NCBI RefSeq assembly: GCF_009914755.1
Contig: NC_060931.1
Source of the DNA: the human T2T-CHM13v2.0 reference genome, Homo sapiens
DNA length: 64,000 bases
Direction: 5' to 3' (one strand)
Position 1 is the stretch's first letter, and the number at the start of each line of letters is the position of its first letter. Positions 23,701-55,489 of this stretch are shown here, piece after piece. The notes beneath the pieces were generated by a model that saw nothing but the letters and a program-made list of their open reading frames with translations, was not told the DNA's origin and made no database searches. The position numbers and the translations under genes were made by a program.

Positions 23701-26700
23701 TGGGCCCCCTGTGGTCCCAAGCCCAGGCTCTGACTCACACACACAGGGGTCGGGGCTGGGGGGTTCTGTACAAGCACTAATGATGTGCGTGCATTATCAG
23801 GGCTGAGGCGGACAAATGCTTTAGCAGAGGTTGGCAACATGAGGGCCCCCCAGGTCACGCGGGAAGTGCCTTGCCAGGACACTAACCCAGCTGCTGTTTA
23901 ACAGAGGACATGAGGATTCACCTTTTGGAACCCCAGGGAGGACGCAGCTCTACACCCTGAGGCCACCAGTGCCCCCCAGGATACCACCTCCACGCACCCG
24001 TCTCCTCCACTCCATCAGAACACCTCTGCTCCTGACCTTCCTTTCCCCAGGTAAGAACACAAGTTCTTTTGTTTAAAGTGTAACTTCATATTCTGATATT
24101 AATAAAACTTATGATATTGCCACCTACCATTCTCTCTCTCCGAGGTTACCTACCTCTCACCTACCTTGCACAATAATCTTTTTATTTTTCAGAAGCTTTA
24201 AGACAATGAATTGAGTAGTTCCAGCATGTCCCCATGAAATAAAGCATAAGATCAAATTGTTCCATTTTCCTTGTAACCCAGTGATGAGAGTTATCATCCA
24301 CAACCTCACTGTGATTATAGAATCAGCAAAGTACACAGGTTCAGTGAGCCAGAAATAAATACATTAATGCGAGAAGACACCTTTCCTGAAATTTGTTTTA
24401 TGTTTGCAATATTTTAAAAAACTTTTCAAACAGATTTTTACACTTCACAGGGGACTCATGGCTGTGATAGAAAACCCAAGTGAGATATGGATACGTTAAT
24501 GAATTAATACCTGCTTCATTTACCAAAGTAAATATCCTTTCCTTGTAACCGCAATTGTCTGAGTCCTTGACACGTTACTCAGCTAACTTCAAAGTGAACA
24601 ATCATACAGTCCCATCCTCACTACTGCGTCCTGCTCCGCCAAAACACAAATCACAACAACACAATGGTTCGGCACCTAGAACTTTCTCACCGGGAAACAA
24701 TCCACCGTGATGGGGCAAACCCCCACTTTAATCAAAGTACTTCCCTAAAGGGCATTTTGTGGTGATTTCAAAGCTAAACCAACCAGAAAGTCTTTACACT
24801 CATTTCATTTCCAAATTTTCCTAGATCACATTTTTAAAGAAAAAAAGTTTTTTTTCCTTTTTATTAATCTGGATTGAAGAAAAGCACACATTTCATTTAT
24901 TGTCTGGATTACAGATTCTTATTAAACAAACCGGAGCTCATTATAAAATCAATATCAACTTAACCACCATGCCCTCAGGAGGAACAGCAAAAAGGTCACT
25001 CCAAGAAATTCAAACAATTTTCCTGCTGGAAGGGCATGATTTTAATTACAGATACTATTAATTAGAGCTGTCACTGGGAAGGCTTTTTTTTTTCTGTTAA
25101 TTATCACAAACTCAGTCCTAAGTATGCATTTTCAACCTGCAGTTTTTTTTTCAAATTAGTCATTTCTGCATGCAAGTCCAACCTTTCCATTCTATCAATA
25201 TTTTATATTTGAATTTCAAAGTATATCAAAGGGCGCCACGCTTTCTAAAAATCTCTGCCTGTATGATCTTCCGTCTCTCACGCATGGAACAGAACTGGTG
25301 TGATAATTTATTTATGTACTGACACAGACTTGGCCTGAAGACCTGGCATCCTACATTGAAGGTCTTGCTCAATGGAATTTCTGGATAAATTCTTACTAGT
25401 TTATGTGACATTTTTTTCAGGCTGCTTCTTCAAACGTGATTTTCCTTTTGCTTTGAAGCAAAGCTATGCACTGCAACTGAAATGCCAGCCTCAACACATT
25501 TGAAGTTGCCATTTCTTTGTAAGAAAAAGATCGTCCTGACCGGGCTGGTGACCCTCTCCAGAAAACTGGAGGCTTCCTCCATTCAATGGCAATACCAGGA
25601 ATTTTGAAATGGGAGGAAAAGCTGTCTTGTGGTCAATCTCTTTTAAGCATAGAGATTGTGTAAATTCCTTATGTGGGGGAGGGTCCTGAGAGCTCACAGA
25701 GTATAGAAAAGCTAGCTCCAAGGAGCTCAGGCAGCAGGAGGGTATGGTGCTGGAGGGCGCTTTGTGGAGAGAGCTTGAGAGCCCACCCATGTAACTCTGA
25801 TGATGGAATAATAATATTTACTTTACATACGACTGTAAAAATGATGAATTATTTACAAGACGTATTGCACACTGTAATCATGTGACTAGAGAAAACAAAG
25901 GATCCAGTCCAATGAGGAAATCTTACACATGTACTGACCAAACTTTTAAAACAGTGGTTAAGGAGTCATCCTACCTTCCCAGATGGGAATATCTTCTCGG
26001 AATTAAATGATATTTTATATGCAAAGGAATCAAACGCCTTGACTGGTGTAAGTATTCTGGGCTTATGCTGCTGTTAAAACCGAAGGCCTATGTTCATTAC
26101 AGGACAATACTAAATACGAAATGTGCGCCATAGAACTTCCAGAAACTCTGTGGTTTTTTAAAAATGCCCGACTTGGTCTGAACTTGCCTTCCTCGCATCC
26201 TCCCCGGTTTCCAGCTCATTTCCAGGGGTGTCTGTGGTGCCTCTAGAGAAGGTGTCCCTCATGGGGACGCGTGTGGGTCACCTTCCCCTGGTCAGCGTTA
26301 GGCTTCACTGGACCGGACAACAGCACAGGGTGGCAACTGGGCAGGTCAAAGGATCTTTTCACAGAAGACCCCGAGGAAGCCGATGATTTTTGAGACATCT
26401 TCAAACACCTACACGCCAAATGATCTCGCAACTCTGGCACTTTTCAGTAGTAGTGGCCAAACTAAGATAACAGATAATACATCATTCATGTACTGTACTT
26501 TTTCCACACTTCTAATTAACAACATTCTTCCAGAGTTAACACGAGGCTATCCAAGAAGAGCAGACGGATACAGAGCTGCACAACTGTGGCTGCAACGTAT
26601 TTGCACGAATGCTGATGAGAAGTTCCAAACTGTCCTCATAAAAGACCCCAAACTATGATACAGGAACAACTGCTGGGAATGGAGGAGGGGCCAGAGAGGA

Positions 26701-26765
26701 ACGCCATCATCTGCCTGTTCAACAGATAAATCCGATATACCACTTTTTAAAAAGTCTCCTCTTAC

Positions 26766-26978
26766 CTGGTAGGCGGCAGTGGCATCTGCACCTGGGTCGC
26801 CCCCTAGTCCCGAGAGCTTCTCCTTCAGCCTGTGCTGAGAGCTATGGCGGAGGCAGTAGATGAGGCCAGAGGCCAGGAGGACGCCCAGGATGCAGGCGAG
26901 GGAGACCAGGGTGAGCGCGATGAACTTGGTGGAGTCTTCTTGCTCCGCCTGAGGAGGCAGGAACTTGAGTTTGCTTTT
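26766..26978 (-). CDS. PTPRN2: PTPRN2 transmembrane/juxtamembrane coding exon (213 nt, phase 0/0; probably exon 13)
   Basis: Translates [71 protein letters not shown], with a TM helix. Acceptor ctctctccttgttctgcAG at 26979-26980; donor CAG|GTAAGA; joins in frame to exon 315-509 (AYQ|ELC). Confidence 0.97.
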
Positions 26979-28239
26979 CTGCAGAACAAGGAGAGAGGGG
27001 TGTGTTAGCTCCTGACAAAGCATGACCTCCTAAAAACACACGTCTCCAAATGCAACTTGAAAGTGGAAAGCTCAGCCCCACAGGACGCTGTGCTGGCCCT
27101 GGAGCCACAACGGGAGGGCCCTGCGGAACAACCCCCGTCAAAGGAGAAGCAGAAATCATTTGAAAATAGCACATCGCAGATTGCAGCGTGCTCAAGAGGA
27201 CAGTCAGAGGCATCACTTTTTCCTTCAGTGGTGGCTGTTTTTCAAATTTATGTAACGTATTTGGCAGCTAATTTGCTGCCTTAAGTAAAGTATCCATCCC
27301 TTCTTCTAACCGGGCACAGCAGTTTGTCCAGAGCTTGCACAATGATTGTCGGGGGTGCTGGGGGGAGGCCAGGCTTGGCGGTGGAGGAGGGTGGGCAGGC
27401 CCGGAGCCTTCTGCAGCTTCAAGTAGCCACCAAGTCCAGCACATCTTCAGCAACAAAGGAACGTGGGACTGGCTCTGTGCATCTTCACAGAACATTCTCC
27501 CTCCCAGGTCAGGGGATTTGGATCCACCTGTCTTGAAAGGCGAGCGCTGGTCGAATCCCACCTGACTCCAGTCACTCTCCAGGAGTGGCCTGGTGCAGAC
27601 CACAACACTTGCCACCTATGCACCTACGTATTTTTCCTTGAAAGGAGCTGCAGAGCCTTTGGAACTTCACTTCTCAGCGAGGAAAACCCTTCAGATTCTC
27701 ACTGCTTCTTGGAGGGCGGGGGTAGGGCTGGTGAAAATATGAGAAAGCCCTTTCGGTGCATTTCACTTGTCTCCACGTGCAAATAGTTGCACGGCTCTCC
27801 CCTCATTAACTTCATTAGAAGGTATATTAGCAACAATTAAGGACGCCACAGGAAAATGGGAAGGCCGCCCCGCAGACCGCGCGCCCTGCACAATGACTCG
27901 GGGAGTGAATGGGGGAGCACGCCCGGCCTTGGTCCTGGCTGCTACAAGATGAGAACAATTAGCAAACCCCTTTCCACCACCTAATTTCGCGTGGTAACAA
28001 AATGGATTTTTCCCCATGAATGCCTGGCCGGCCTATTCATTATCTCTCTTCTATTAGTAATTTTCTGCTCCGTATTCAGCCTCCCAACTCTTCATTTCCT
28101 CCCGTCTCCCAGCGTACACAGTGCCTCTTATGTCAGGCCGGGCCCGTTTTTATCTTGTAATCATAAAGGCCACCAAAGCAATTATCGCCGGTCTTGACTG
28201 GAAAAGCTGGTCATTAATTAGCCTCCTTTTGCCTTCGGT

Positions 28240-30300
28240 GCAGCGGATTAGCTGGTGCCGGGACTGAGTTAATGGAAACGCGGGTTAAATGAGAAAAGAC
28301 GCCCGGATTTTCCTGCCTGGATGCGCGGCTCGGAGGAGGACCGCGAGGTTCTCCAGCGGCGGGAGGCGGTGGAGCCGCCGCGGAGAGGGAGGGAGGCTTT
28401 GGAGAGGGAGGGAAGGAAAGGGGGAGGGAGAGGGAAAGGGGGGAGAGGGAGAGGAGGCGCGGGGTGGGGGAGGGGAGTGAGCAGGGAGCCGGGAGAGGGA
28501 GGAGGGGCGGGAACCAGGGGAGCGGCCCGAACCCCGTTTGGTCCGGACCCCGCAGCCACCGCTGGGTCTCGCCGCCGGGTCGCCCTTCGCGTGGAGATCC
28601 GGTCCGCGCCCCCTCCCCGGTCTCCTCCCCTCCCCTCCCCTCCGCCCCCCTCCCTCCGGCCCACACAGCCTCTTCCAGAAAGAAGTCACTCTAGAGCCGC
28701 GCGACCCAGCCCCAGAGTCCGCCGGGGTCCGCCCACCGGGTCTCCTGCGCGCCCCTCCCCGCCCCTCCCCGGGCACAGCCCGTTCACGAAACCTAAGGCG
28801 CCGGCCACGCGCCACCTCCCCCGGGCCGGGGTCTCCTCGGTCCCCGCGCGGGCGCTGGTTCTCCCGGGTGGGCGGCAGCCCCGCCCTGTGCCCTCCTGGG
28901 CCGGCGCGAGGGACCCTAGAGCGCGCGGGGGGCCCCAGGCGGGGAGGAGCGGCCGCGACCCCGGATGCGAGAGGCGTGTGGGTCCAAGCGGCGCCGGGAC
29001 AGGGGCCGGGTCCTCTGCCCACCCCAGGGTCCATGTTCGCCTGCGGGGCCGCGTCCCCCGGAGCCATACCTGGGCGGGAGGGCTTTTCCCGGGGGCCCGG
29101 CCTGCGCCCCTCGCCGCCCCTCGCCCCTCGCCTCTCGCCTCCCGCGGGTCCCGCCTGGCCTTGGCCGACGGAACAAGAACAACAAAGGAAGCGGCGCGAC
29201 CGGCGGAGGGGGCGCCCGCCGCCCTCCCACCCCTCATCCCGGCCGGGCCGATGGCCCCCGCGCGCCTCCATCCGCCCCAGCGCGGAGGCGACCCCGGCCC
29301 CGCTGCCCCGGCGTCGGGAGGACACCGCGCGCTCACGTGGATGACTGCGCCCGGGAACAGGGACTTCCCGAACCTTCCTGCCCCGCGCCGTGAGGCCCAC
29401 ACGCGCGCGGTGACCACCCTGGTTCTGAGGGGGCGGCGGGGCCACGGCGTGTGGCGGACCCGGCAGTGGCACCCAGGCTGTGCGCGCGGGTGTGTGGGGT
29501 TCCGAGGCGCAGGGCGACCGCCGGCTCCGGCTCCCCGAGGAAGGGGCACAGGCGCTGCCCGCGGTCACTCGGGCCAGGTGAGGGCAGGGGACGCGCGGGG
29601 GCCGGAGGAGGAGGCCTGGTCTGCGGGCGGCAGGAGGGACCCGGGGCCAGCCGAGGCTGTTCCCAGGGAGGCAGACACCTGCTGTCGCCGGGACCCTCGA
29701 CACGCTCCGCACGCGCGGGAGCGGAACCGGGCCTGCTTTGGAGGCCTCCCTTGGCGCGCTTGGATTTACTCAAAGGTCAAAGAAAAATGTCAAGGAGAGC
29801 GATTGCCTGGAGAGCTCCTGGCTCTCCTCCCGGGTCCCCGCTGGGTCCCAGGAGTCCCCGGAGGGGAAGCAAGGAGCCCCAGTGCCCTGGAGTCCTGTCT
29901 CCACCAACCTCGCCCGGCTCCCTGCTGCCTAGGCCCGCGCTGTCCCAGCAGAGGAGGGGTGGGAGCCGCCCCAGGCCCACCTCCCCGCGCCGGTCCACAA
30001 GGAGGCCCCTCCTGCAACCTGGGAGAGGCCGGGGGAGGCCCGGAGGGCGACCGCGCGGGGCCGCGGGACCTGGACAGCCGGGGAGTCGTGACCGCGGGCA
30101 GCGCCGGGGCTGAGGGCGAGGAGGGTCTTACTGCAGGGAAGGGCGGGACGCTGGACAGAGGGACCGACTGGGGTCCACCGGCCTGACACAGAAGTCGCTG
30201 GATCCCAGGGCCCGGCTGGGAAACCCGCTTCCTACCCGCCCGCGGGCGCCGCAGAAGAAACCGAAGAAAGAGGTCTTCCCTCCACGCCCAGGACGGTTTC
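28240..30300. promoter_or_regulatory. Intragenic CpG island, part 1
   Basis: Very GC-rich with dense CpG, many GC boxes and no repeats. Confidence 0.9.
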
Positions 30301-33300
30301 AAGTGTCCCACCCAGCGCTGAGCAGGAGGGTGATGCGGAGGGAAAAACTGTTGGCTGCAAGTCAGGTCTTAGGAATCCCGGAAGAAACGAAGATTTAAAG
30401 AATTTTTTTCTAAGTGATTGAGTTCCAATAACTTTACAATGACTTGACTCCCTTTTTGTGGAGTTAAAAAAAATCTTCAAACTCCTGCTAGCCATGGCCT
30501 TTAAGAGAAAGAAATGAGTTTAAAAGTGAGTTTGAGGCACAGTCTTGACCCAGGTGTGGCTTTGGTGGTCCTCAGCGCCATCTCCCCCATGGGCACCGAC
30601 CCCCCAAGGCTGCACCACGGCGGGTGGACCCCAAAGAGAGCCCAGACTAATTAGAGGCATCTTATCAGTCTTGACTTGAAATTGAAAGAAAATTATGTTT
30701 AAATATTTATGACTTTGACATTTACAGTCAGGCGTTTTTGAAAAGCGGAACACCCCCTTCTGTACAGCGGCAGCTCAATGACTGAAAGTTTGGAACAGAG
30801 AAGAAGTGAGGAGGAGGAGGAGGGAGAAGGAGGCCTGGTAACACAGCGGCAGGGGTGCGTCCCGGGTGGGGGAGATGCACAGATAGGCACACTTCAGTGC
30901 TGAGTTCTCAGAGGCAGGAATAGTATAATTTAAAAAAATAATCAGGAATGATTAAGTTAATTTTATCCCAGGTTAGATCTATCTTGAGAATAAGATGAAG
31001 TACAATATCGCATATTTCTTCCTCTCAACCGTCTGCACCTGCAACTCCTCAAATTTAGAATAGACAGTATTGCAAAAGTTGTGATTCAAAATAAGTGTAT
31101 GACCACAGAGACAATTTGTGGAGCTGTCTTAGAACTTAGCATCTGCAGACACTGTCCTGACCAATTTAAATTATTTTGACCGTGCCCCTGAGTGGAGGTG
31201 CATGAGGCTTCCACCCCATGCCCTTGTGAGCCATTTACGGGAAAATGCCTTCAGAACTTTTTTAGCTGTCCATGTGGTAAGCTTAAAAGAAAAGAAAAAA
31301 GGACATGTTATGCCCAAACTCAATTGTGAGAGCTGATACAGCCACACAAATACAAAACTTTATGGTAAATATGTGTTGACGGGTAGCCAGATTTAGTCCT
31401 TTTCCAAGGTTGTGTGATATAACCAGTTAACAGGAGCAGTTCATTCTCTGAGTCACGATGTGCAGTATTAAAATATGCTTGCATCATAAAGACGTAGGGA
31501 TACAGGTGCTCGGTGCCAGTTAATGTTAAACTTCTAACATTGTTGATGCTTTCATTTGTATCATTTCTAAGGAATCAGATTTCAGTCCCAGCCTCATCCT
31601 ATCTTTGTGTGCATTTAAATTACTAAATTATAAATACCTTTTTCTCTTAAAACTTAGAAGTCAGTTTTAGAGACCATTAATGAGTTGCTGTAACAAGTTT
31701 ATCTTTGGTTTGCTGGATGAATCCTCTTAGAATTATTAGGAAATTTCATTCTAAATTTACTAAAAGGCATTACTAAAATATAATACTCACTTTAGGGCTG
31801 ATGAACATTTTAAGTTTTCAGGCCATAGCAAGTGATCCAACTTGAAAACACGGGGGAAGGGGTGTCTTAAAATATTTTAAAAGTATTTTTTAAAGCTGTT
31901 AACGGAACTACTTTTAATTTGGAATTTGCCACAGAATTCTAATAAATGAGAGAAGTCAGGCGGAAATAATCATGTATTAATTCTCTGCATTACAAAATCT
32001 TTTCAGAAGCTATTATCAGAGCAAGAGGCACTGCGGTCTGAATTCAGGGTGGGAGAAGCCCTTTGTGCAACTGAAAGCTATTGTTCCTCCGTGCAGATGA
32101 AATTGTACTTGCAAATCTGCCATTCAAGTGGCCAAAAAACCCAAAAAAGCAAAAGAAAAGAATCTTCAAGGAAAAATTATTCTTAAATGTAAACTTTAAT
32201 GAAAATAAGTTGGGATATACTGTTTTAAAATGGGCTATTTGTTGAGTTTTTCCAGGCATACACTTAAAAGTGAATATACAAGAAAGGCAATAAATTGTCT
32301 ATTTGCCATCTTTAAGCACTCCTAAAACATCAGTTTTAAAGAAATACTGTGTTTTAAGACATCAGGGAAGATTTATGATACTGATGTCCAAAGGGGGAAG
32401 CACCCTTGTGCAAACTAATTCTAACCAGCAGATTGCCTCCGGTGGGAGAGAGGGACCCAGAGGCTGAGCAGGGGAAGGATGCCCCTGAGAAAGCCGCCCC
32501 CAGCCTCTTTCAGACTCTCCGCTGGCGTTTTCATGACACCCAAACTCAGACTCAGCGGATCACACTTAAGGCACCGGCTCCTGACCCCTATTTTTGGCCC
32601 GCCCGCCTGGTCCCCAGGCCTGCCTGGACGCACGCGCGCCTTCCACACCAGGTGCTTCTCGGGACGGGGCCTGGCCTCCCCACCCCGCAAGAACCAGACC
32701 CTCTTCAGGACTGGGGGGGTTACCGCTTCGCCTCCTCTACCCGGACTCAGAAGCCCCAACCCAAGACCCGCCTAGCGTCGCTTGTCAGAACCCCTCTGTG
32801 GCACGACTTTGAGCAGAGGGCGAGGGAAAGGAGGGTCAGCGTTCGGCCCCGTCCCCTGCCTGGGCTTTCTCCCCCGCTTCCCCGTCCCTCCCCCCTCGCC
32901 GGTTCACCGCATCCCCACAGGAGTCATAAAGATCAGGCCCCAGCGCCGGACACAAAGGCCAAGGGTTCCCGGGAGCCGCGGGTATTCAGAGCCAGGAGAG
33001 GGGTCCCGGCGCGGAGGGTGCTGCGGCCCAGCCTCCTGGCCACAGAGCGCGCCGGCCGCGAGGGAGGACCAAGGTCCCCAACCACGCCCGCGTCCACCCG
33101 TGAATCCCGGCGCTCGCAGCCCCCGGGCGGCGCAGCCGCCACCGCCGCCGTCTTCTCTGGAGCGCAGAGGGGTGTGCTTGGGAGGGGGCGGGAGGGCACT
33201 TTCCTCTGTGTCGGTGAAAGGAAGAGCTTCCAGCTCCCTCCTCCGCACAAACCTTCACTTCCTCTCTTGTTCGATCGCGTCCTAAAATCTGGGATCGGCG

Positions 33301-33769
33301 ACGCAAGGACAGCCTGGTTTGGCGAAGACCCCTCGGACACCCTGCGCTCCGGACTCCAGGCGGGTGGCTCCACGGTGCCGGCCGGGACGCGCAGCTCGGG
33401 GGGCGGGACCACGTCCGGGACCCCGGGGCCGCTGTCCGAGGACGGAGGTCGGTGACTTGAACCGCGTCGTCCTCAGGGCTGTGGCGGGGCCCCTCTCCCA
33501 GCCGTCCAGCCCGCAGCGCCCAGCTCAGCGCACTGAGGACCAAAAAGGGCGGGAGACTCTCTCCGGCCCTAAAAGGCAATTGTGCTGAGATTTTAACTCT
33601 AACTTGGGGGTTCGCCCGATTCCCTGGAGCAACGCTTCTCTAAAACCACGGAGCAGGCCAGTGTTCGGAACTGCACAGGTAGTTACGAAGGAAGGAAATG
33701 AAGTCCCTCGTTCCAACAGCTTCGGGTCCAGTCACAAGTTTCTCTCTGGCGAGCACGCGGCCGCCTCAC

Positions 33770-33975
33770 CTGGGGTGGGGGAGGCGCTGAGAAAGCGCAG
33801 TTCTCTTTGGGGGAGGAGAGATGGCCTCTCAGAGGCGTCCCCACCTGCCTCTGGAACGCCTCTCCCTGCAGGCCCCCTCGGTTCCCTGCAATTCGCCGCC
33901 CGCTGGGATACTCCCATGGCTCGGAGGCGCGCTCCCGGACCCTGGTGAGGAGGGTGAAGAGCGCCCCAAAATGGG
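33770..33975 (-). other. Candidate alternative exon B (206 nt, phase 1/0)
   Basis: Acceptor CGCATTTTCCTCTCAG at 33976-33977; donor CCCCAG|GTGAGG at 33769; frame is open and bridges exon A to the TM exon. Confidence 0.3.
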
Positions 33976-34592
33976 CTGAGAGGAAAATGCGCCCACACTG
34001 GCGCCTCTCCATCCTGGCTGCTCGCCCCTTCCCTCCTCCTTTCCCACACGCCTCCCATCTCCGTGCCTGCACCCCCCCACCCCCAGCACCCTGCAATGGT
34101 CGGAACTGCAGGGAGTGGGGAGCAACGCGAAAGGCCGAGAGAAGAGCGCTGGGGAGAAGTCCCGGAGGTCCTAGACTCCTTGGGGCGGTCTCTGCGGGGC
34201 GCTGGGCCAGGACAGCTGCCAACCCTCCAAATCTGTGCGCTCAGAAGGAGCTGCCCTTTGCCCGCTCCTCCTCACAGGCCCACCCTAGACCCACTTGGGG
34301 ATGATCCCAGGCGCAGCTCTCCCCTGCCGGCCCAAGCCTTTGACAGGAGTCCTGCGGCGAGGCAGAGACCCCCTGAACTGAGCTCTCCGACGCCCTAGTT
34401 GCCCGTTAGAGCCCCCATGCGCGCCCTCCAGCCTTCGAAAGCTCTCTTCCTCGCCCCACCACCTACGCGCCTGGTGATGCTCTCGTGGGCCCTTCCTGCT
34501 CCCTCCGCCCCCATCCCAGCCTCTCTCGCCTCTTCCAGGGCCCACCCAACCGCACTACGAGCGCCCGCGCCCCGCCCGGCACCCCTGGTTAC

Positions 34593-35008
34593 CTGCAGCT
34601 GGGCCGGCGCCCAGCGCCCGCGCGGGAGGAGGTGGGGGCGTGCGCCGGGCCGAGCGGCCTCGGGGCGCAGCAGCTGCGGGTAGCGGCAGCGCCATCATCA
34701 CAGCCAGCTGCTTCCCTGCGCTGGAGCCACAGACTAGCGGGGTCATCCGCTTCTGACCACAAACTTCTAGGGCGGCCGGAGGAGACAAAGGTGCCGCGCG
34801 TCGCTGCTCCAGCAGCAGCGGCTGCGCGGCGGCACGGGCTCGGAGCCCGCAGGCGCCGGAGCTCTGCGCGGCCGCTCGGCCCAGCTCCGCGTGCTCCGCC
34901 CCGGCCCGGCCCCCGGGCTAGGCACGCTGGGCCGGGGCGCGGCGCGGGCGGGCTCAGGGCGGGCTCCGGACGGTCCCGGTAGGGCCGCCGGCCGCGCGCG
35001 TAGCACCA
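34593..35008 (-). other. Candidate alternative first exon A from an internal promoter
   Basis: Begins about 30 nt downstream of a TATA box; donor CTGCAG|GTAACC at 34592; in-frame ATGs at 34746, 34698 and 34695. Confidence 0.5.
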
Positions 35009-35220
35009 ACCAGCGCGGCCGCCGCGCCCCGCCTTATATCCGGCCCGGCGCGCACCCGGCCGGCGGCGGCGCGGCTCGCGGCCCAGCCACCGGTTGCTAT
35101 AGCGATGTCCCCCCCCCCCCCACATGTTGCTGACAGCAATTGGCTAAGGGGCCGCGGCTCTCCAAACACCCTCTCCCGCCCGAGACTATGAATGGACATC
35201 AGCTTTGTCAGTCATTGGTA
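35000..35220 (-). promoter_or_regulatory. Internal core promoter: TATA (35032-35039), X-box-like GTTGCTATAGCGAT (35093-35106), C13 tract, X-box-like GTTGCTGACAGCAAT (35126-35140), CCAAT (35139-35143 and about 35213-35217)
   Basis: Motifs read directly, in canonical order and spacing, oriented with PTPRN2, at the densest CpG part of the island. Confidence 0.6.
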
Positions 35221-37243
35221 CAACGCCGAAGCCAGGGCCTTCGCCTTTTCTTTCTTTTCAGTGTTTCTCCCTTTCATCGTTCATACTGGGCAAGTTCAGG
35301 GTAGCACCGAGGGGAGAGAGACCTCGGCCAGAAAAGTCAAGGCGCGCGGCTCTGCTGTGACCTTTGTCCTGGGAGGGGTGGGTGGGGTGCGTCGCCACTC
35401 TTGGCAAGAGAAAATTGCACGGCATATCGTTCTTCCCAGTTACCTTTTCCAGTGTTGCCGTTCGGGCCTTTTTGCTCCCTTTCCAAATGGAAGCAGGCCA
35501 ATGATTCAGGGCGAGTAGACGAGAGCCCCTCTGCTCACTTTACCAGGGTCCTCCCGAGTGTTTAGGTCCCGATGCGCGTAGAAAGTGTCTTGCGAGACGC
35601 GGAACTGGTGAGACTTTGCCACCATTTGGTCCAGGCCAATGTCGGCCGCCAGCCCAAAACGCCGAAGGGAGACGGCGGTGAAAACCCAGGCGTGCGAGCT
35701 GCGTCCTTGCCCTTCCCCCTACCCAGGTCAATGGTCTGGCCTAGACCACCGCTCTGCGGGCGAAAGGAGTGGAGCAGAATCACAGGCCACGCTCCCAGTC
35801 GTTCGAGCCTGCCCACATAACCCCCGGCCCCTGGCGCAGTCAGGCCCGCAGCGGGCGAGAAGAGCTAGGGTCTCGGGGCGACTAGGACCACTGAGCACCT
35901 CCCCCCCGCGCCTCCCGCCCATGCTCTCTCTCCCCAGGCCCTGGACCCCGGGCCACAGCCACAGGTTGGGGCACCCCGGTGCGCGGCGCCCCCGCGGAGC
36001 TGGCGAGAGCCGGAGAGCTGAAACCCAACATCTGTGTGTACAATGCGCTCTCCGAGGCCCACAGCTGCAGGAACAAGGAGAAGAAAGGAAGAGGGGGGCG
36101 CAGATCTTGTCACACGCAGATGACAGTCTGCGGAGGGCTCTTTAGTTTCTCCTTTTCTGGAAACCCCAGCGGCCCCCTCCTAGGCCCCCCTCTCCCACCG
36201 CCTGGCCATTGTTCCCTGCGCCCGGGACAGCTGGAGACGGCGGCCCGCGCCACTCGACGCCCCTCCCGCCGCACACCCGGCTGCCCGCGGCGCCCGCTCC
36301 CGGCCCCTCCGGGGCCAACTCCTCCACACCCCCCACCTCCCCAGGCCAGGCCCAGGCGGCGCTTCCACAGTCTCCCCTCCCCTCCCTTGCACTCTGGCGC
36401 TGCCCCTAGACCTGCTCGGTGCAGAGGGCCTTGCCTGGCGCTTTTCTCTCACAAACCTAGTTCTGTAAAACCTGGGGGCGAGCCCCAGGGGGCAGGGCTC
36501 AGAGGCGGGGGTTGTCCACAGATATGAGTACGGTGCCGTCCGCTGCAGGCCCCTGTCTAAAAGTGGCCGAAGGACCCCGTTTCCTCTGACTGCAGGCCCA
36601 GGCTGAGTTCCGCATTTATTTTTGTATTTATAGGGCAAGGCCAGAGCGCTTCATAAAGCTCCAGGGCAAAGAAGTGGCCTCGCATCGGGCCATGGTTCCC
36701 GCAGGCCTGAGCGGGCTGCAGGAGGCCCGGTGCGGCTCGGCGGGGGCGCGAGAGGCGAGAAACTGCGGCGTCACTGGCGTCCTCTGCCCATGAGTGAACC
36801 CCTCCAGTAGGCGGGGACGGGGTACATCACCTTGGCCCTCTCGTCCCCCCTGCCCAGGGCAAGGCCCGCAAAAACCCCCGCACCCTGGCTCGGGGGCGGC
36901 GCGGCGGCGGGCAGGTCAGAGAGAAGCGGTACTCGGGTTCCCCCAGCGCCCGGGATGCCCTCCCAGGGACCTTCTCGGGCAAAGAGTCGAGTGGTAGCGG
37001 TTCCTGTCCCTCCCCGCCACCCTCCTCCGGTGCCTCGGCGTCCCCAGCCAGGCTCCAGGGCGACCCCAGGCCCGGCCCTGGGCAGAGACAGAGGAGGGGA
37101 GGGGAGGTGGCGCTGGGGGGCGGGGGGCCGGAGACGGCGGGAGGAGGACTCGGGAGCCGGGGCGGGAAGAGGGGAAGACAGCGGAGAGAAGGGACGGGGA
37201 GGGGAGGGGGCTCGGAGGAGGGGACCTGCTGCCCTCAGCCTGG

Positions 37244-37270
37244 CTGGTAACCGGCCTCTCCATAGCAACG
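37244..37270. promoter_or_regulatory. RFX X-box (CTCCATAGCAAC, 37258-37269) with an adjacent GGTAAC half-site
   Basis: Minus-strand GTTGCTATGGAG is close to the RFX consensus GTTGCCATGG(C/A)AAC. Confidence 0.55.
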
Positions 37271-39856
37271 GCCAGCGCGCGCGTCTGTGTGTGCGCGCGT
37301 GTCTGATGTGTGTGTGCCCGTGGTGTTCCCGGGACTCCCCGCGGGGGCTGGGAGGGGATCGCAGAACCCTAGGGTGGCGACAGAGCAAACCCCTCCAGGA
37401 CTGGAGGCCCGACCTCCGCGGTGCTGGGAGCGCCCTAGGGTCTGGCTGCGCCGCGCTGGCGACGGGGTAGGCTCGGGGAACGCGCGCAGGCCCCGGGATC
37501 GGCCGCTGGGGCATTGGGGCATCCTGCCCTCGCTGCCCCGACCCTCCCGCTGCGGTCGCAGGGCCTTGGGGCACCGGGGAGTGGGCGGGTCTTCCCAGCG
37601 ACCCGGAGCACAGGGGCGGGCGACGGCGCCCCCACCATGGCCCTGCCCGGCCCGAGCGCCCGGCGCACCTGAGGTCTGGGCCGGGGAGCAGCTGGGGAAC
37701 CGCGCGTCGCCTCGGGGAGCTCCCGGCCAGGCCGGCTCCGGGCAGAGGCCAGAGGGGCCCTGGCGCACCCTCCCCGCCCGCGGCGACCTCGCACCACCTT
37801 CCCCGCCAGCCCGCGGCTCTCCTCGCCCTGGATCGCCGGAGCCTCATCCAGGCTGGGGTCTCCAGCAGGCGGCCGGGAGCTCTCCGAGGTGGCCAGGAGT
37901 GGCCGGTAGCCGTCTCCCTCGGCCAGGCCGTGTCCAGCCCCTCAGTCTCCACGGCGGCGCAGACCGCACGCGGCCACCCTGGGCCTCGGACAGGGCTAGG
38001 GGGACGCAGACCCTGCCGTCTGGGGGTCCTGGGGCGGCCACGGGGCCGGCGACCCCAGAGCAAGGCGGAGCCTAGTACAGGCCAGAGAGCTGGTTTTGCT
38101 TTCTTCACAGACATGACCTGACAGTGAATACACAAATAAATACAATTCTTTTCGTTAGTCCCTTCTTCCGTTGTCTCAGTGTTTCACTTCCAACATCAAA
38201 GCACCGCATTCCTGATTTGATCTTAATTTAATGACCTGTCTTTCTAGTGCTTTGAGGAAAGATGGGTGGGAGGTGGCACCAATTCAGTTCAATTTGGGTC
38301 ACTTTAAAAATCGTGAGAGGGCCTGAAAGGTTCCATGCGGGTTCACCAGCAGAACAGCACACTTCCTCGTCCACGCCTTGGTGCACCTGCGGCAATATAT
38401 TCTGGGTGGCAGACGGTTATTTATGTCTGAGAGCCTCCAACTCACTCCCCTTCCTCCCACCACCCCTCCTCTAAGGTGCGGCCTGACCTCAGTGGGGCTG
38501 CAGAACTGGCCTCGCCAAAGCTGAAGGCGGACCCACACTCTAAGCCCTAGAGTCTAGGGGGGTCATGAGAAGAACGCGTTTGTATTTGAGGTGCTGGTTC
38601 TTTTAGTCTATTGCTTCAGAAACTGGTAAGTTACTCGCCAGATTTCCATTCTATTTTTCTTTATTTTAAATTCCCTTTTTATTTCCAGGGCAGGAAAATG
38701 TATCTTCTAATTCTTGAAAATACTTTAGAAAAGTGTCTCGGCAATAATGTGAGACTAGATTCAGCTAATTTGAAGAATGAATAATGATGTGAGGATTTTT
38801 TCTTTTTTCTTTTTTTTTTGGTCATGAGATCTTAGACTTCATTTAATAATAAATTTCAATTTACATGATTTCAATAACATTTTCAGAGAAAACTTTTAAA
38901 CATGACACAAAATATTTTTGAGAGACATGTTGATTGAAATCATTTATATATGACAAATGAGTACATTATTCATATAGAAGTTAGGGTTGTTTGGCTGATG
39001 AATAAAAAATATAATATATGTAAAATTCTCCAAGACCTACAAAATAGCTACACAATATAAATAGTTTAAAAATGATTTGTTGATCCTGCCAATACTTCTT
39101 TTAAAGTGCATTTCACATTTGTTATGTGTAAAACCTAATGTTCTGTGATAAGAATCTCATTTTCAATTTAAGGAACACCAAATTGTTATAGATTACACAT
39201 TTAAGTGATTAGAATAAATATCCCATGCACTAAATTATCAAAGAAAATGTATTTTTAAACAAAATAGAGAAAGACTGTTATGGGAAACATGATTATTATA
39301 AAGCAAAACACATATTTCAGGAATTTAAAATAATATGGTAAGGTAGAAAATGATTTAAAAAACACCTGAGACTCTTGATTTCAGAAGTCTAAATCAATTT
39401 TGTTTTTTAAACTAAGACAGTAATTTATAATTTTACAGTACACAAATAGTATTTAAAATACTTTTGATTTCTAAATCCATTTTTAAAAAGTATTTACTAT
39501 TATAATATAAAAATAAAAATAGATCCTTAAAAATATTGTAGGTATGTGTATAAGGCATTTCTTCATGCATATATTTAAAGAAAACAACATTTTAAAGTAA
39601 CAATGAGTGCATTTTGAAAACAAGATGTTTTGAGAGGTCAGCCTCCTAGTAAAGCATAGTAGTTGGCATTGAGATAATTTAAGAACAAAGACACTTCCAC
39701 AGACAAATATGGATGACTCTGAGTTGAAATGTATTAACCACCAGTAGTTATTTTTTCAAGGACAATATTTGGAAGAGCATCAGACACTAGTGAGAAGTCC
39801 TTATTCATCATAAAAGAAGGTAAGTCCATTGCAACAATAGGGCAGTGAAACAACTG

Positions 39857-42080
39857 CATCTTAGTAGAGCCCTCACCGTCTACCCGTGCATACTGGATCT
39901 TAGTAGAGCCCTCACCATCTACCCATGCATACTGGGTCTTGGCAGAGCCCTCACCATCTACCCATGCATACTGGATCTTAGTAGAGCCCTCACCATCTAC
40001 CCATGCATACTGGGTCTTGGCAGAGCCCTCACCATCTACCCATGCATACTGGGTCTTGGCAGAGCCCTCACCATCTACCCATGCATACTGGGTCTTGGAA
40101 GAGCCCTCACCATCTACCCATGCATACTGGGTCTTGGCAGAGCCCTCACCATCTACCCATGCATACTGGGTCTTGGCAGAGCCCTCACCATCTACCCATG
40201 CATACTGGGTCTTGGGAGAGCCCTCACCATCTACCCATGCACACTGGGTCTTGGCAGAGCCCTCACCATCTACCCATGCATACTGGATCTTAGTAGAGCC
40301 CTCACCATCTACCCATGCATACTGGATCTTAGTAGAGCCCTCACCATCTACCCATGCATACTGGGTCTTAGTAGAGCCCTCACCATCTACTCATGCATAC
40401 TGGATCTTAGTAGAGCCCTCACCATCTACCCATGCATACTGGGTCTTAGTAGAGCCCTCACCATCTACCCATGCATACTGGATCTTAGTAGAGCCCTCAC
40501 CATCTACCCATGCATACTGGATCTTGGCAGAGCCCTCACCATCTACCCATGCATACTGGGTCTTGGCAGAGCCCTCACCATCTACCCATGCATACTGGAT
40601 CTTAGTAGAGCCCTCACCATCTACCCATGCATACTGGATCTTAGTAGAGCCCTCACCATCTACCCATGCATACTGGGTCTTAGTAGAGCCCTCACCATCT
40701 ACCTATGCATACTGGATCTTGGCAGAGCCCTCACCGTCTACCCATGCATACTGGGTCTTAGCAGAGCCCTCACCGTCTACCCATGCATACTGGATCTTGG
40801 CAGAGCCCTCACCATCTACCCATGCATACTGGATCTTGGCAGAGCCCTCACCATCTACACATGCATACTGGGTCTTGGCAGAGCCCTCACCGTCTACACA
40901 TGCATACTGGGTCTTGGCAGAGCCCTCACCGTCTACCCATGCATACTGGGTCTTGGCAGAGCCCTCACCGTCTACTCATGCATACTGGGTCTTGGCAGAG
41001 CCCTCACCGTCTACCCATGCATACTGGGTCTTGGCAGAGCCCTCACCATCTACCCATGCATACTGGTTCTTGGCAGAGCCCTCACCATCTACCCATGCAT
41101 ACTGGGTCTTGGCAGAGCCCTCACCATCTACCCATGCATACTGGGTCTTGGCAGAGCCCTCACCATCTACCCATGCATACTGGGTCTTGGCAGAGCCCTC
41201 ACCATCTACCCATGCATACTGGGTCTTGGCAGAGCCCTCACCATCTACCCATGCATACTGGGTCTTGGCAGAGCCCTCACCATCTACCCATGCATACTGT
41301 GTCTTGGCAGATTCCTCACCATCTACCCATGCATACTGGGTCTTGGCAGAGCCCTCACCATCTACCCATGCATACTGGATCTTAGTAGAGCCCTCACCAT
41401 CTACCCATGCATACTGGGTCTTAGTAGAGCCCTCACCATCTACCCATGCATACTGGATCTTAGTAGAGCCCTCACCATCTACCCATGCATACTGGGTCTT
41501 AGTAGAGCCCTCACCATCTACTCATGCATACTGGATCTTAGTAGAGCCCTCACCATCTACCCATGCATACTGGATCTTGGCAGAGCCCTCACCATCTACC
41601 CATGCATACTGGGTCTTGGCAGAGCCCTCACCATCTACCCATGCATACTGGGTCTTAGTAGAGCCCTCACCGTCTACCCATGCATACTGGATCTCGGCAG
41701 AGCCCTCACCGTCTACCCATGCATACTGGGTCTTAGCAGAGCCCTCACCGTCTACCCATGCATACTGGATCTTGGCAGAGCCCTCACCGTCTACCCATGC
41801 ATACTGGATCTTGGCAGAGCCCTCACCATCTACCCATGCATACTGGGTCTTCGCAGAGCCCTCACTGTCTACCCATGCATACTGGATCTTGGCAGAGCCC
41901 TCACCATCTACTCATGCATACTGGGTCTTGGCAGAGCCCTCACCATCTACTCATGCATACTGGGTCTTGGCAGAGCCCTCACCATCTACCCATGCATACT
42001 GGATCTTAGCAGAGCCCTCACCATCTACCCATGCATACTGGGTCTTGGCAGAGCCCTCACCATCTACCCATGCATACTGG
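39857..42080. repeat. 39-bp minisatellite, about 57 copies
   Basis: Unit tcttggcagagccctcaccatctacccatgcatactggg with g/a and gc/gt variants. Confidence 0.98.
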
Positions 42081-54366: not shown

Positions 54367-54500
54367 GGCCAGGTGTGGTGGCTCATGTCTGTAATCTCAG
54401 CACTTTGGGAGGCCGAGGCGGGAGGATTACTTGGGCCTAGAGTTTCAGACCAGGTGGCCAACACAGTGAGACCCCATCTCTACAAACAATAAAAAAATCA
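54367..54500 (+). mobile_element. Alu left monomer / FLAM
   Basis: ggccaggtgtggtggctcatg...gagaccccatctctaca plus A-rich end. Confidence 0.85.
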
Positions 54501-54810
54501 CCCAAGCTGCCTAACCGCCCCCACCCCCCCGCCCCGTGGCACAGGATGTTTCCCAGGGCAGAGAGTGACATGGCTGCGGGGTCCCGCTGCAGAAGAACCC
54601 TGTGCAGTGAGGGCCACAGGCCTGGGACCCCAAGCCGCTCAGGACCGTGCACAGCTCCCAGATGTCCCCTGGGGGGACATCTCTTCCGGAGGATCTTTAG
54701 GGTCCCTTTCAGCCCTGCCATCTGTACGCCCACCATGGACTGGTGCCTACTGCCTGCCGCCTGGGCACAGGTGCCCTTGCGCCTGGCCCTCAGCCCGCCC
54801 ATGTGCAGGA

Positions 54811-55489
54811 GGGGTTCCGGGGCAGCCGGGTTACACGCGAGAGCCCCACGCGCCGGAGGTTCCGGGGCAGCCGGGTTACACGCGAGAGCCCCACGCGCCG
54901 GAGGTTCCGGGGCAGCCGGGTTACACGCGAGAGCCCCACGCGCCGGAGGTTCCGGGGCAGCCGGGTTACACGCGAGAGCCCCACGCGCCGGAGGTTCCGG
55001 GGCAGCCGGGTTACACGCGAGAGCCCCACGCGCCGGAGGTTCCGGGGCAGCCGGGTTACACGCGAGAGCCCCACGCGCCGGAGGTTCCGGGGCAGCCGGG
55101 TTACACGCGAGAGCCCCACGCGCCGGAGGTTCCGGGGCAGCCCGGTTACACGCGAGAGCCCCACGCGCCGGAGGTTCCGGGGCAGCCGGGTTACACGCGA
55201 GAGCCCCACGCGCCGGAGGTTCCGGGGCAGCCGGGTTACACGCGAGAGCCCCACGCGCCGGAGGTTCCGGGGCAGCCGGGTTACACGCAGAGCCCCACGC
55301 GCCGGAGGTTCCGGGGCAGCCGGGTTACACGCGAGAGCCCCACGCGCCGGAGGTTCCGGGGCAGCCGGGTTACACGCGAGAGCCCCACGCGCCAGAGGTT
55401 CCGGGGCAGCCGGGTTACACGCGAGAGCCCCACGCGCCGGAGGTTCCGGGGCAGCCGGGTTACACGCGAGAGCCCCACGCGCCGGAGGT
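54811..55489. repeat. 45-bp CpG-rich minisatellite, 15 near-identical copies
   Basis: Unit gaggttccggggcagccgggttacacgcgagagccccacgcgccg; one unit has a 1-bp deletion (about 55288). Confidence 0.98.

What the first reader, a model, noticed from the sequence alone, without database searches (positions are those of the whole stretch)
26766..34746. Exon A + exon B + TM exon form one continuous ORF: a candidate signal-peptide-less phogrin isoform
Seen: ATG ATG at 34698/34695 (second in ATGATGG context; another in-frame ATG at 34746) gives MMALPLPAAAAPRGRSARRTPPPPPARALGAGPAA and ends in phase 1. Candidate exon 33975-33770 (206 nt, TTTTCCTCTCAG acceptor, CAG|GTGAGG donor) continues stop-free as AHFGALFTLLTRV...FSAPPPPQ and ends in phase 0, matching KSKLKF... 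of the TM exon. An internal donor CAG|GTGGGG (about 33844) is also phase 0. Inference: a roughly 104-aa new N-terminus would replace the whole luminal domain. Caution: frames are easily open in GC-rich DNA and a phase match has about a 1 in 3 prior. The 33770 site also resembles a recursive AG|GT site.
Basis: inference. Interest (0 to 1): 0.7.

Follow-up and report, generated by a model that had tools for sequence, protein, structure and literature searches.

The report
Internal PTPRN2 promoter, probably chance ORF
The open reading frame is really there, but it sits in the GC-rich first exon of a conserved internal promoter of the PTPRN2 (phogrin) gene, already described in mouse as a driver of miR-153, and nothing found here suggests that it encodes a real protein.

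Summary
On the minus strand, 34698-34593 + 33975-33770 + 26978-26766 join into a stop-free 525-nt frame.

The continuity is weak evidence for a coding isoform:
- Two of exon B's three frames are open.
- Exon B's frame stays open for 185 codons, well past both splice sites.
- 38% of 204-nt reading windows in this CpG-island cluster are stop-free.
- The phase match has a 1-in-3 prior.

What is really there is a promoter. A TATA box, two CCAAT boxes and a GC box lie at 35218-35038. Two blocks match ChIP primers for the published mouse Ptprn2 "cryptic promoter", which drives miR-153. MIR153-2 lies about 116 kb downstream.

ORFs from eight other mammals show conserved DNA but a drifting reading frame. 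Two of eight lose the ATG-to-donor frame. The one distant species that covers exon B reaches the donor in a different frame.

A protein database that holds the human RefSeq isoforms has no protein carrying exon B, apart from one genomic read-through ORF.

The isoform is not excluded (about 8%). It needs cDNA data that I could not reach.

The parts
32500..38000 (.). CpG-island cluster inside the PTPRN2 intron upstream of the TM exon
   Evidence: Nine of eleven 500-bp bins have GC >= 0.55 and CpG o/e >= 0.6. GC is 0.62-0.79.
35030..35222 (-). Core promoter elements: CCAAT at 35218 and 35143, GC box at 35181, the only TATAWR match at 35038. I infer a TSS about 30 nt downstream, near 35010-35000.
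   Evidence: Motif scan and sequence. Marmot model P0040, residues 27-69, maps to 35157-35035 (E 0.007).
35170..35193 (-). Block conserved with the mouse Ptprn2 'cryptic promoter'. It contains the GC box.
   Evidence: Mouse ChIP primer R1-reverse matches 21 of 24 bases. The best chance matches of the other primers are 15-17.
34701..34725 (-). Second block conserved with the mouse cryptic promoter, directly upstream of the ATGATG
   Evidence: Mouse primers R2-reverse and R3-forward, which overlap each other, each match 18 of 22 bases.
34593..34746 (-). ATGs lie at 34746 (weak context), 34698 and 34695 (ATGATGG). The donor CAG|GTAACC follows 34593.
   Evidence: No ATG lies between 35125 and 34746. 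The donor scores 3.1 with the recalled matrix, and it is the first GT scoring >= 2 after the TATA box.
33770..33975 (-). An internal alternative donor follows 33845.
   Evidence: Acceptor 4.6 (top 10 of 504), donor 7.3 (best of 339), internal donor 4.7.
33769..33771 (-). Juxtaposed AG|GT (pyrimidine tract, CAG, then GTGAGG), which looks like a recursive splice site
   Evidence: One of 3 among 227 AG|GT sites on the minus strand of the window that score >= 4 both as acceptor and as donor.
34010..34012 (-). ATG in exon B's reading frame, 12 codons upstream of the acceptor, with A at -3 and G at +4. It would let an unspliced first exon ending at 33770 read in frame into the TM exon.
   Evidence: Sequence and the stop-to-stop translation.
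26766..26978 (-). Annotated PTPRN2 exon that encodes the transmembrane segment (residues 597-667 in 1015-aa numbering)
   Evidence: Hub annotation. The hydrophobic peak is at residues 123-147 of the joined product.

Best explanation
The region 35220-34590 is a conserved internal promoter of PTPRN2 together with its first exon. It is a CpG-island promoter with TATA, CCAAT and GC-box elements, and it is the human counterpart of the mouse 'cryptic/alternative' Ptprn2 promoter.

Transcripts that start near 35010-35000 (inferred) would run through the 3' third of the gene. They would supply the intronic miR-153-2 precursor, about 116 kb downstream, independently of the main promoter.

On this reading exon A is a 5' leader. 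The frame that can be threaded from its ATGs through 33975-33770 into the TM exon is a by-product of stop-poor, GC-rich DNA, not a selected coding sequence.

Shown here: the sequence elements, the matches to the mouse primers, the frame drift between species, and the absence of any such protein in the databases I could search.
Inferred: the human TSS, use of the 34593 donor, and the link to miR-153.
For: Promoter:
- The only TATAWR match in 35400-34500 is at 35038, preceded by CCAAT at 35218 and 35143 and a GC box at 35181.
- CpG o/e is 0.85-0.92 at 34501-35500.
- PMC5293492 (section 8 and the primer tables read) reports a second H3K4me3 peak inside mouse Ptprn2, about 100 kb upstream of miR-153. 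KCl raised H3K4me3 about 100-fold there, against 3-fold at the main promoter, with CREB, CBP, C/EBPbeta and ATF4 binding.
- Of that paper's 20 tiling primers, R1-reverse matches 21/24 at 35170-35193. The overlapping R2-reverse and R3-forward match 18/22 at 34701-34725. They are colinear and in the expected orientation. The other 17 match 13-17 of 18-24 bases, which is chance level.
- By the hub table, MIR153-2 lies 115.7 kb downstream of 34698.
- PMC3671108 (passages): knockout mice whose Ia-2beta promoter is deleted keep about 50% of brain miR-153.
- PMC8499053 (passage): a 'short unannotated transcript' in the 3' region of human PTPRN2 in neural stem cells.

ORF not selected:
- Chance figures are given in the observation check.
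- Frameshift-aware alignment of 8 non-human ORFs to exon A: 6 keep the net frame from ATG 34695 to the donor. Two of those six contain compensated out-of-frame segments of 12 and 6 codons. Two (P0124, P0084) leave the frame before the donor.
- Conservation is equally strong in the leader upstream of ATG 34746. There the human frame differs from the other species' frame and carries a stop. Conservation also continues past the donor.
- Exon B in P0126: the first 18 codons are 14/18 identical, then the frame changes. The alignment path runs through human frames 2, 0, 2, 1 between acceptor and donor, so the donor is reached in a different frame. The downstream 'intron' is at least as conserved (46/82) as exon B (about 30/71).
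- Close primate ORF P0001: 3 differences in the 68 exon B codons against 2 in 109 flanking codons, and it reads straight through both splice sites.
- GC at codon positions 1/2/3 is 0.89/0.86/0.69 in exon A. The two annotated exons have 0.63/0.44/0.77 and 0.55/0.62/0.85.
- No Pfam match at E <= 1.
- The exon B peptide finds only P0001 in a 5.8-billion-protein database. The same database returns the human 920-, 948- and 998-aa PTPRN2 isoforms for the TM exon.
Against: - The exon B donor is the strongest of 339 GT sites in 7.6 kb, and its acceptor is in the top 10 of 504. Only one exon candidate reaches those thresholds, so there was little multiple testing (recalled matrix).
- The first three ATGs after the predicted TSS share one frame, and the last is in a strong context.
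- Six of 8 mammals keep the ATG-to-donor frame, and an M at the position of ATG 34695 is present in 7 of 8. The search was done with the human frame, however, which favours finding such ORFs.
- A rodent mRNA-like contig (P0048, 510 aa) joins a different upstream exon in frame to the TM exon at the normal acceptor. Transcripts running from the TM exon onward with new 5' ends therefore do exist.
- Camel model P0085 takes its first coding exon from the segment homologous to P0126's exon B region (9/12 identical).
- I saw no human TSS or RNA data. The hub table shows only 1 of the 14 RefSeq transcripts.
Confidence: 0.6

Rival explanations
1. Transcripts from the internal promoter include exon B and are translated from ATG 34746, 34698 or 34695. 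The product is a phogrin of about 523-539 aa whose luminal domain is replaced by a basic, probably disordered 104-120-aa N-terminus. The TM segment inserts it as a reverse signal anchor (type III), like the TM-plus-catalytic variants of other receptor phosphatases.
For: - The frame is continuous.
- The candidate exon has the best donor and a top-10 acceptor.
- The first AUGs of the predicted leader are in this frame.
- Charges flanking the TM segment (-1 on the N side, +3 on the C side over 15 residues) favour an N-out, C-in orientation.
- There are precedents. The PTPRR 60-kDa isoform comes from an alternative promoter, lacks a signal peptide and behaves as a type III protein. STEP61 and PTPROt are similar cases (PMC9900141, passages).
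- Without exon B, joining exon A directly to the TM exon shifts the frame and stops inside the TM exon. Exon B would then act as the coding switch.
Against: - The frame at the exon B donor is not kept in P0126, and P0124 and P0084 lose the exon A frame.
- Exon B is not better conserved than its flanks.
- No protein carrying exon B turns up in a database that holds the human RefSeq isoforms. None of the 120 listed TM-exon proteins has the exon B motif.
- The composition is what translated CpG-island DNA gives: 59 of 104 residues are A/P/R/G, and the pI is 11.8.
- 122 residues with a net charge of +9 would have to cross the membrane.
- The mouse FANTOM3 survey lists Ptprn2 only under 'secreted' variants, not under TM-plus-catalytic ones (PMC1431701, Table 8 passage).
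Confidence: 0.08
2. The internal promoter does yield a protein, but by another route. One option is exon A spliced directly to the TM exon, where the exon A ORF acts as an 80-codon upstream ORF. Translation would then restart at the first in-frame Met after the TM exon (residue 674 in 1015-aa numbering), giving a 342-aa cytosolic fragment. The other option is an unspliced first exon that uses ATG 34012 and the strong donor at 33770, giving 81 new residues joined in frame to the TM exon.
For: - The exon A to TM join stops inside the TM exon.
- The first Met after the TM exon leaves 342 aa.
- ATG 34012 lies in the open 185-codon stretch, in a good context. The span 34012-33770 is 243 nt, so it ends in phase 0.
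- 33770 is the best donor.
- Rodent P0048 shows a new 5' exon joined in frame to the TM exon.
- Models in pig, tuatara and crocodile start in the intron just upstream of the TM exon.
Against: - There is no direct evidence for any of these products.
- Restarting after an 80-codon upstream ORF is inefficient, and such an mRNA would be a target of nonsense-mediated decay (established rules, from my own knowledge).
- The N-termini of the short models differ from species to species.
- A 342-aa protein fully contained in the long isoform would be hidden by the database's clustering, so its absence there says nothing.
Confidence: 0.15
3. In human cells the island is not an active promoter. It would be an orphan or Polycomb-type intragenic CpG island, or an enhancer. 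The exon-like signals would serve removal of the long intron: the AG|GT at 33770 would act as a recursive splice site for canonical PTPRN2 pre-mRNA.
For: - 33770 is one of 3 among 227 AG|GT sites that score >= 4 both as acceptor and as donor.
- The intron extends beyond the window, so it is longer than 37 kb (hub table).
- The P0126 peptide at this site is consistent with a retained donor motif.
- The cluster is unusually large (5.5 kb) and has neighbouring islands at 28000-30500 and 54500-55500.
- RefSeq lists enhancers elsewhere in the window but no gene or TSS here (hub table).
Against: - The TATA, CCAAT and GC-box arrangement and its conservation in mouse and marmot argue for a promoter.
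- The mouse orthologue carries inducible H3K4me3 and Pol II-linked marks.
- The acceptor score at 33770 is only moderate, 4.4 against 7.3-7.8 for the two annotated acceptors.
Confidence: 0.12

Closest known systems
Mouse Ptprn2 internal 'cryptic/alternative' promoter that drives miR-153 (Mathew et al. 2016, eLife, PMC5293492)
   Same: It lies inside the same gene, upstream of the TM exon and about 100 kb upstream of miR-153 (human: 116 kb). Two sampled blocks are conserved (21/24 and 18/22). It is a CpG-rich region of H3K4me3 type.
   Different: The paper treats it as a miRNA promoter and says nothing about exons, ORFs or the human locus. Human activity was not tested here. Seventeen of the 20 mouse primers do not match the human sequence above chance.
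TM-plus-catalytic isoforms of receptor tyrosine phosphatases made from internal promoters: the PTPRR 60-kDa form (PTP-SL), STEP61, PTPROt, and the 'Tmcat' class of Forrest et al. 2006
   Same: An internal promoter, loss of the extracellular domain, no signal peptide, and a TM segment used as a type III anchor.
   Different: Those isoforms have cDNA and protein evidence. Here there is only an ORF, whose frame is not conserved. Ptprn2 is not in the Tmcat list of PMC1431701.
Recursive splice sites in long vertebrate introns
   Same: A pyrimidine tract plus AG set directly against a strong GT in a long intron of a neuronal gene.
   Different: The acceptor is of moderate strength, and the site lies inside a CpG-island promoter region. 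There is no junction or lariat evidence.
PTP-NP-2, an isoform of the rodent orthologue (Jiang et al. 1998, Gene 215:345)
   Same: A described alternative form of the same gene, expressed in neurons.
   Different: I saw only the reference title. The paper is not held, so I cannot say how that isoform differs or whether it starts at this promoter.

Membership tests
CpG-island RNA polymerase II promoter | CpG island (GC >= 0.55, o/e >= 0.6, longer than 200 bp) | tested here: met
   Bins 34501-35500 have GC 0.61-0.78 and o/e 0.85-0.92.
CpG-island RNA polymerase II promoter | Core and proximal elements in the canonical order (CCAAT and GC box upstream of a TATA box) | tested here: met
   CCAAT at 35218 and 35143, GC box at 35181, a single TATAWR match at 35038. 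These are consensus matches only.
CpG-island RNA polymerase II promoter | Mapped transcription start (CAGE or 5'-RACE) or promoter chromatin in human cells | not testable with these tools
   There is only mouse ChIP data in PMC5293492 and a remark on a short human transcript in PMC8499053.
Orthologue of the mouse Ptprn2 cryptic promoter | Sequence conservation at a syntenic position | tested here: met
   Three of 20 primers, covering two loci, match above chance (21/24, 18/22, 18/22). They are colinear and upstream of the TM exon and of MIR153-2. No mouse genomic sequence was available for a full alignment.
Protein-coding exon (exons A and B) | Open frame bounded by usable splice sites of compatible phase | tested here: met
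   The chance expectation is about 0.13-0.22.
Protein-coding exon (exons A and B) | Reading frame preserved across species, with indels in multiples of three | tested here: not met
   Exon B: P0126 runs through human frames 2, 0, 2, 1 between acceptor and donor. Exon A: 2 of 8 species lose the frame, and 2 more have compensated shifts.
Protein-coding exon (exons A and B) | Stronger conservation than the flanking intron | tested here: not met
   P0001: 3/68 differences in the exon against 2/109 in the flanks. P0126: about 30/71 in the exon against 46/82 downstream.
Protein-coding exon (exons A and B) | Codon-position composition like that of neighbouring real exons (GC3 highest) | tested here: inconclusive
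   Exon A 0.89/0.86/0.69 (opposite trend); exon B 0.68/0.59/0.75 (weakly alike); real exons 0.63/0.44/0.77 and 0.55/0.62/0.85. The sequences are short.
TM-plus-catalytic receptor phosphatase isoform made from an internal promoter | cDNA joining the alternative first exon(s) in frame to the TM exon | not testable with these tools
   No human transcript data. Only one unnamed rodent mRNA-like contig (P0048) shows such a junction, with a different 5' sequence. Its 5' part could not be placed on the human window (score 43 against 35.4 +/- 6.0 for shuffles).
TM-plus-catalytic receptor phosphatase isoform made from an internal promoter | A recorded protein or gene model with this N-terminus | tested here: not met
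   The exon B peptide finds only the genomic ORF P0001. None of the 120 listed TM-exon proteins has the exon B motif. Clustering at 90% identity could hide an isoform inside a larger cluster.
Recursive splice site | A strong acceptor directly abutting a strong donor in a long intron | tested here: inconclusive
   Acceptor 4.4 and donor 7.3; one of 3 among 227 AG|GT sites passing 4/4. The matrices were recalled, not curated.

The most novel reading that the evidence does not exclude
The internal, activity-inducible promoter of PTPRN2 produces more than a miR-153 host transcript. When the 206-nt exon 33975-33770 is included, it also produces a signal-peptide-less, TM-anchored phogrin of about 523-539 aa. 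This protein would lack the whole luminal domain and carry a young, primate-restricted basic N-terminus. Exon B inclusion would then switch the transcript between non-coding and coding.
Probability: 0.08. Interest if true: 0.55.

Novelty: already known. Interest (0 to 1): 0.3.

Why it matters
Phogrin (IA-2beta) is a major type 1 diabetes autoantigen and a dense-core-vesicle protein. Its gene also hosts miR-153.

Placing the published mouse internal promoter on the human sequence gives a concrete human target for CAGE, methylation and eQTL work on miR-153 and on 3'-only PTPRN2 transcripts. The target includes its TATA, CCAAT and GC-box core and the first candidate donor.

If the ORF were translated, cells could make the cytoplasmic, autoantigenic part of phogrin without the luminal sorting domain, under neuronal-activity control. 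That would be a new member of a known class of receptor-phosphatase isoforms.

On present evidence the ORF is ordinary: it is the kind of open frame any CpG island offers.

Tried and rejected
- Pfam found no family at E <= 1 for the exon A peptide, the exon B peptide or the two stop-to-stop translations.
- Rfam found no family in 26000-38500 at gathering thresholds.
- I tested whether exon A is a duplicate of the canonical signal-peptide exon, because of a shared LPAA..PRGR stretch. BLASTP gave E = 0.85, so I rejected the idea.
- By eye, the 5' part of rodent P0048 seemed to align with the exon A leader and with the mouse primer site. Frameshift-aware alignment scored 43 against shuffles of 35.4 +/- 6.0 (max 56), which is not significant, so I dropped it.
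- The N-terminus of camel P0085 against human 35300-27000 scored 30 against shuffles of 34.5 +/- 4.8, which is not significant. It does match P0126 at 9/12 residues.
- Mouse primers R4-R10 and four others (17 of 20 in all) gave only chance-level matches, so they say nothing about mouse conservation of exon B.
- The N-termini of horse P0098, mole-rat P0042 and P0074, vole P0112 and squirrel P0050 could not be placed in 26900-36500 at E < 0.01.
- The miRStart TSS in PMC3671108 lies 38,909 bp upstream of the precursor. By the hub coordinates that is outside the window, so it is a different site.
- The PTPRN2 DMR of PMC12409953 is given in hg19 coordinates, and I did not place it.
- I ran seven literature searches. 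The only papers I found and read that describe an internal PTPRN2 start site or short transcript were PMC5293492, PMC8499053 and PMC3671108. None describes a human isoform that starts here. The Gene 1998 PTP-NP-2 paper is not held.

Full report
**Observation.** On the minus strand, ATGs start at 34698 and 34695, the second in an ATGATGG context. A third in-frame ATG starts at 34746. CAG|GTAACC follows 34593, so the frame from 34698 ends in phase 1. A pyrimidine tract plus CAG precedes 33975, and CAG|GTGAGG follows 33770. The annotated TM exon starts at 26978. A script that joined 34698-34593, 33975-33770 and 26978-26766 gave 525 nt without a stop and a new N-terminus of 104 aa. Starting at 34746 adds 16 residues. 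The internal donor after 33845 is also phase-compatible and open.

**Is it more than chance?**
- Two of exon B's three frames are open.
- Exon B's frame is open stop-to-stop over 34240-33686, 185 codons. That is 89 codons before the acceptor and 28 after the donor. Exon A's frame is open over 34917-34558.
- On the minus strand of the CpG-island cluster 32500-38000, 60% of 105-nt, 38% of 204-nt and 21.5% of 312-nt reading windows are stop-free.
- The cluster holds 34 open stretches of at least 100 codons and 10 of at least 185 codons on its two strands.
- With a 1/3 prior for phase, the continuity through exon B has a chance probability of about 0.13-0.22.
I used position weight matrices that I recalled from memory and that are approximate; the two annotated acceptors score 7.8 and 7.3 and the donors 7.1 and 5.2. 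The exon B donor (7.3) is the best of 339 GT sites between 34592 and 26979. Its acceptor (4.6) is among the 10 best of 504 AG sites, and only one phase-compatible pair exists at those thresholds. The exon A donor is weaker, at 3.1.

**What the surroundings are.**
- The finding lies in a 5.5-kb cluster of CpG islands, with more islands at 28000-30500 and 54500-55500.
- Upstream of exon A the sequence reads like a classical promoter. CCAAT lies at 35218 and 35143, a GC box at 35181, and the only TATAWR match of 35400-34500 at 35038.
- No ATG lies between 35125 and 34746. A transcript starting about 30 nt after the TATA box would therefore meet 34746 (weak context), then 34698, then 34695 (strong context), all in one frame. 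An ATG-free stretch of this length is not surprising at this GC content; that is my own estimate, not a tool result.

**Literature.**
- PMC5293492 (section 8 and the methods tables read) describes a second H3K4me3 peak inside mouse Ptprn2, about 100 kb upstream of miR-153. It calls this a cryptic or alternative promoter. After depolarisation, H3K4me3 rose about 100-fold there, against 3-fold at the main promoter. CREB, CBP/p300, C/EBPbeta and ATF4 were recruited.
- I placed the paper's 20 tiling primers on the window without gaps. R1-reverse matches 21/24 at 35170-35193, over the GC box. The overlapping R2-reverse and R3-forward match 18/22 at 34701-34725, just before the ATGATG. The other 17 reach only 13-17 of 18-24 bases, which is what chance gives.
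- The two hits are colinear, correctly oriented, upstream of the TM exon, and 116 kb upstream of MIR153-2 (hub table). I take the human region to be the orthologue of the mouse promoter.
- PMC3671108 (passages) found that mice lacking the Ia-2beta promoter keep about half of their brain miR-153, and it predicted an independent start site.
- PMC8499053 (passage) noted a short unannotated transcript in the 3' part of human PTPRN2 in neural stem cells and linked it to the mouse promoter.

**Comparative test of coding, exon A.** A full HMMER scan of 1.84 billion representative proteins with the 120-aa stop-to-stop translation gave 7 hits at E <= 0.001. All are nameless ORFs that read through the orthologous DNA of other mammals. 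The narwhal gene model P0084, from the TM-exon search, makes eight species. I aligned each to the human DNA with a frameshift-aware alignment of my own.
- P0122, P0123 and P0125 stay in the human ATG frame from 34746 to beyond the donor.
- P0126 does so only from 34731, and it lacks the 34746 ATG.
- P0127 and P0128 return to the frame after out-of-frame segments of 12 and 6 codons.
- P0124 and P0084 leave the frame before the donor.
- So 6 of 8 keep the net frame. The search was made with the human frame, which favours such ORFs.
- Conservation is just as high in the leader upstream of 34746 (16-22 identities per 18-30 positions). There the human sequence is in another frame and carries a stop.
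- Conservation also continues beyond the donor. This is the pattern of a conserved promoter-proximal DNA element, not of a peptide.

**Comparative test of coding, exon B.** Two searches of the 5.8-billion-protein database found a single relative, P0001. The first used the 68-aa exon peptide against longer proteins; the second used the 185-aa stretch against proteins of similar length.
- P0001 is a 179-aa ORF from an unnamed contig and is 96-97% identical. It runs straight through both splice sites. It has 3 differences in the 68 exon codons against 2 in 109 flanking codons.
- The only more distant sequence covering exon B is P0126. Its first 18 codons are 14/18 identical to the human exon. After that the best path changes frame three times (human frames 2, 0, 2, 1) and reaches the donor motif in a different frame from human.
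- If the same splice sites were used in that species, exons A and B would not read into the TM exon in frame.
- Identity is about 30/71 in exon B and 46/82 in the 240 nt after the donor.
- The middle block of that alignment is poor (12/40), so the exact positions of the indels are uncertain. The two ends are firm.

**Database control.** The TM-exon peptide, searched the same way, returned 304 proteins, of which 120 were listed. They include human PTPRN2 forms of 920, 948 (isoform X3, on this very assembly) and 998 aa. A motif search over all stored proteins found the exon B motif only in P0126. The exon A motif occurred only in P0084 and four of the nameless ORFs. I read 26 of the 120: 13 short predicted models or mRNA-like contigs of 199-604 aa and 13 short ORFs of 126-288 aa, mostly genomic read-throughs. 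Their N-termini differ from species to species.

Two of them are worth noting:
- P0048, a 510-aa ORF on a 2.9-kb mRNA-like rodent contig, joins an unrelated 91-residue upstream sequence to the TM exon at the normal acceptor.
- Camel model P0085 takes its first coding exon from the segment homologous to P0126's exon B region (9/12 identical).

These show that transcripts running from the TM exon onward with new 5' ends exist or are predicted in other mammals. They do not show that they share a protein sequence. Clustering at 90% identity could hide a human isoform inside a larger cluster. The hub table shows only 1 of the 14 RefSeq transcripts.

**Protein plausibility.**
- Of the 104 new residues, 59 are Ala, Pro, Arg or Gly. 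The pI is 11.8 and the net charge +9. The best 19-residue hydropathy window scores 1.27, against 2.54 for the real TM segment, so there is no signal peptide and no second TM segment.
- There is no Pfam match.
- The charges flanking the TM segment (-1 and +3) would allow the native orientation. However, 122 residues with a net positive charge would have to be translocated. By the positive-inside rule (my own knowledge) that is unfavourable though not impossible.
- GC by codon position in exon A (0.89/0.86/0.69) runs opposite to the two annotated exons. Exon B (0.68/0.59/0.75) is only weakly exon-like.

**Other products and readings.**
- Splicing exon A directly to the TM exon shifts the frame and stops inside the TM exon after 80 codons. 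The next in-frame Met of phogrin would leave 342 aa of cytoplasmic domain.
- ATG 34012 lies in exon B's frame, 12 codons before the acceptor. Together with the strong donor at 33770 it would give an 81-residue extension in frame with the TM exon.
- The 33770 site is also one of 3 among 227 AG|GT sites that pass both matrices at 4 or above.

**Comparison with what is known.** As a promoter, this is the human counterpart of a published mouse element. As a proposed protein, it would belong to the known class of receptor-phosphatase isoforms made from internal promoters that keep only the TM and catalytic parts.
- Examples are the PTPRR 60-kDa type III form, STEP61 and PTPROt (PMC9900141, passages).
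- The same class appears as 'Tmcat' in PMC1431701. That paper does not list Ptprn2 in the class.
- Membership of the class requires a cDNA and a protein. Neither could be tested here.
- The one defining feature of a coding exon that I could test across species, frame preservation, is not met.

**Verdict.**

| Reading | Confidence |
|---|---|
| Conserved internal promoter and 5' exon, with a fortuitous ORF | 0.6 |
| Another protein product from the same promoter | 0.15 |
| Inactive island, or a recursive-splicing role | 0.12 |

Interest is 0.3. The real feature is already described in mouse. The ORF is statistically ordinary, but the isoform hypothesis is cheap to test with existing human CAGE and long-read data.

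Noticed in passing
window 27742-28017 (- strand): A strongly conserved element lies about 0.8-1 kb upstream of the TM exon, at the edge of the CpG island 28000-30500. The N-terminus of pig model P0075 maps here (E 2e-19; the first 32 positions are nearly identical). The human DNA is rich in TAAT-type motifs. It looks like a conserved non-coding enhancer or a second internal start region rather than coding sequence, since the human frame carries a stop.
   Followed up: partly
window 27021-27023 (- strand): An ATG lies 15 codons upstream of the TM-exon acceptor and in frame with it. Unnamed genomic ORFs P0003 and P0012 start there. Models from pig, tuatara and crocodile (P0075, P0059, P0086) also read through this acceptor from the intron, which hints at transcripts that start just upstream of the TM exon.
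   Followed up: partly
window 39859-42080: A minisatellite of 57 copies of a 39-bp unit, 95% matching and free of CpG. It produces a 768-codon open stretch on the + strand.
   Followed up: partly
window 28000-30500 and 54500-55500: Two further intragenic CpG islands, with o/e up to 0.88 and 1.07. Their role was not examined.
   Followed up: no
window 34746-34770 (- strand): In 7 of the 8 other mammals the ORF runs unbroken from the upstream leader into the ATG at 34746. In human this stretch is in a different frame and carries a stop, so human and the others differ by an indel that is not a multiple of three bases, just before the ATG.
   Followed up: partly
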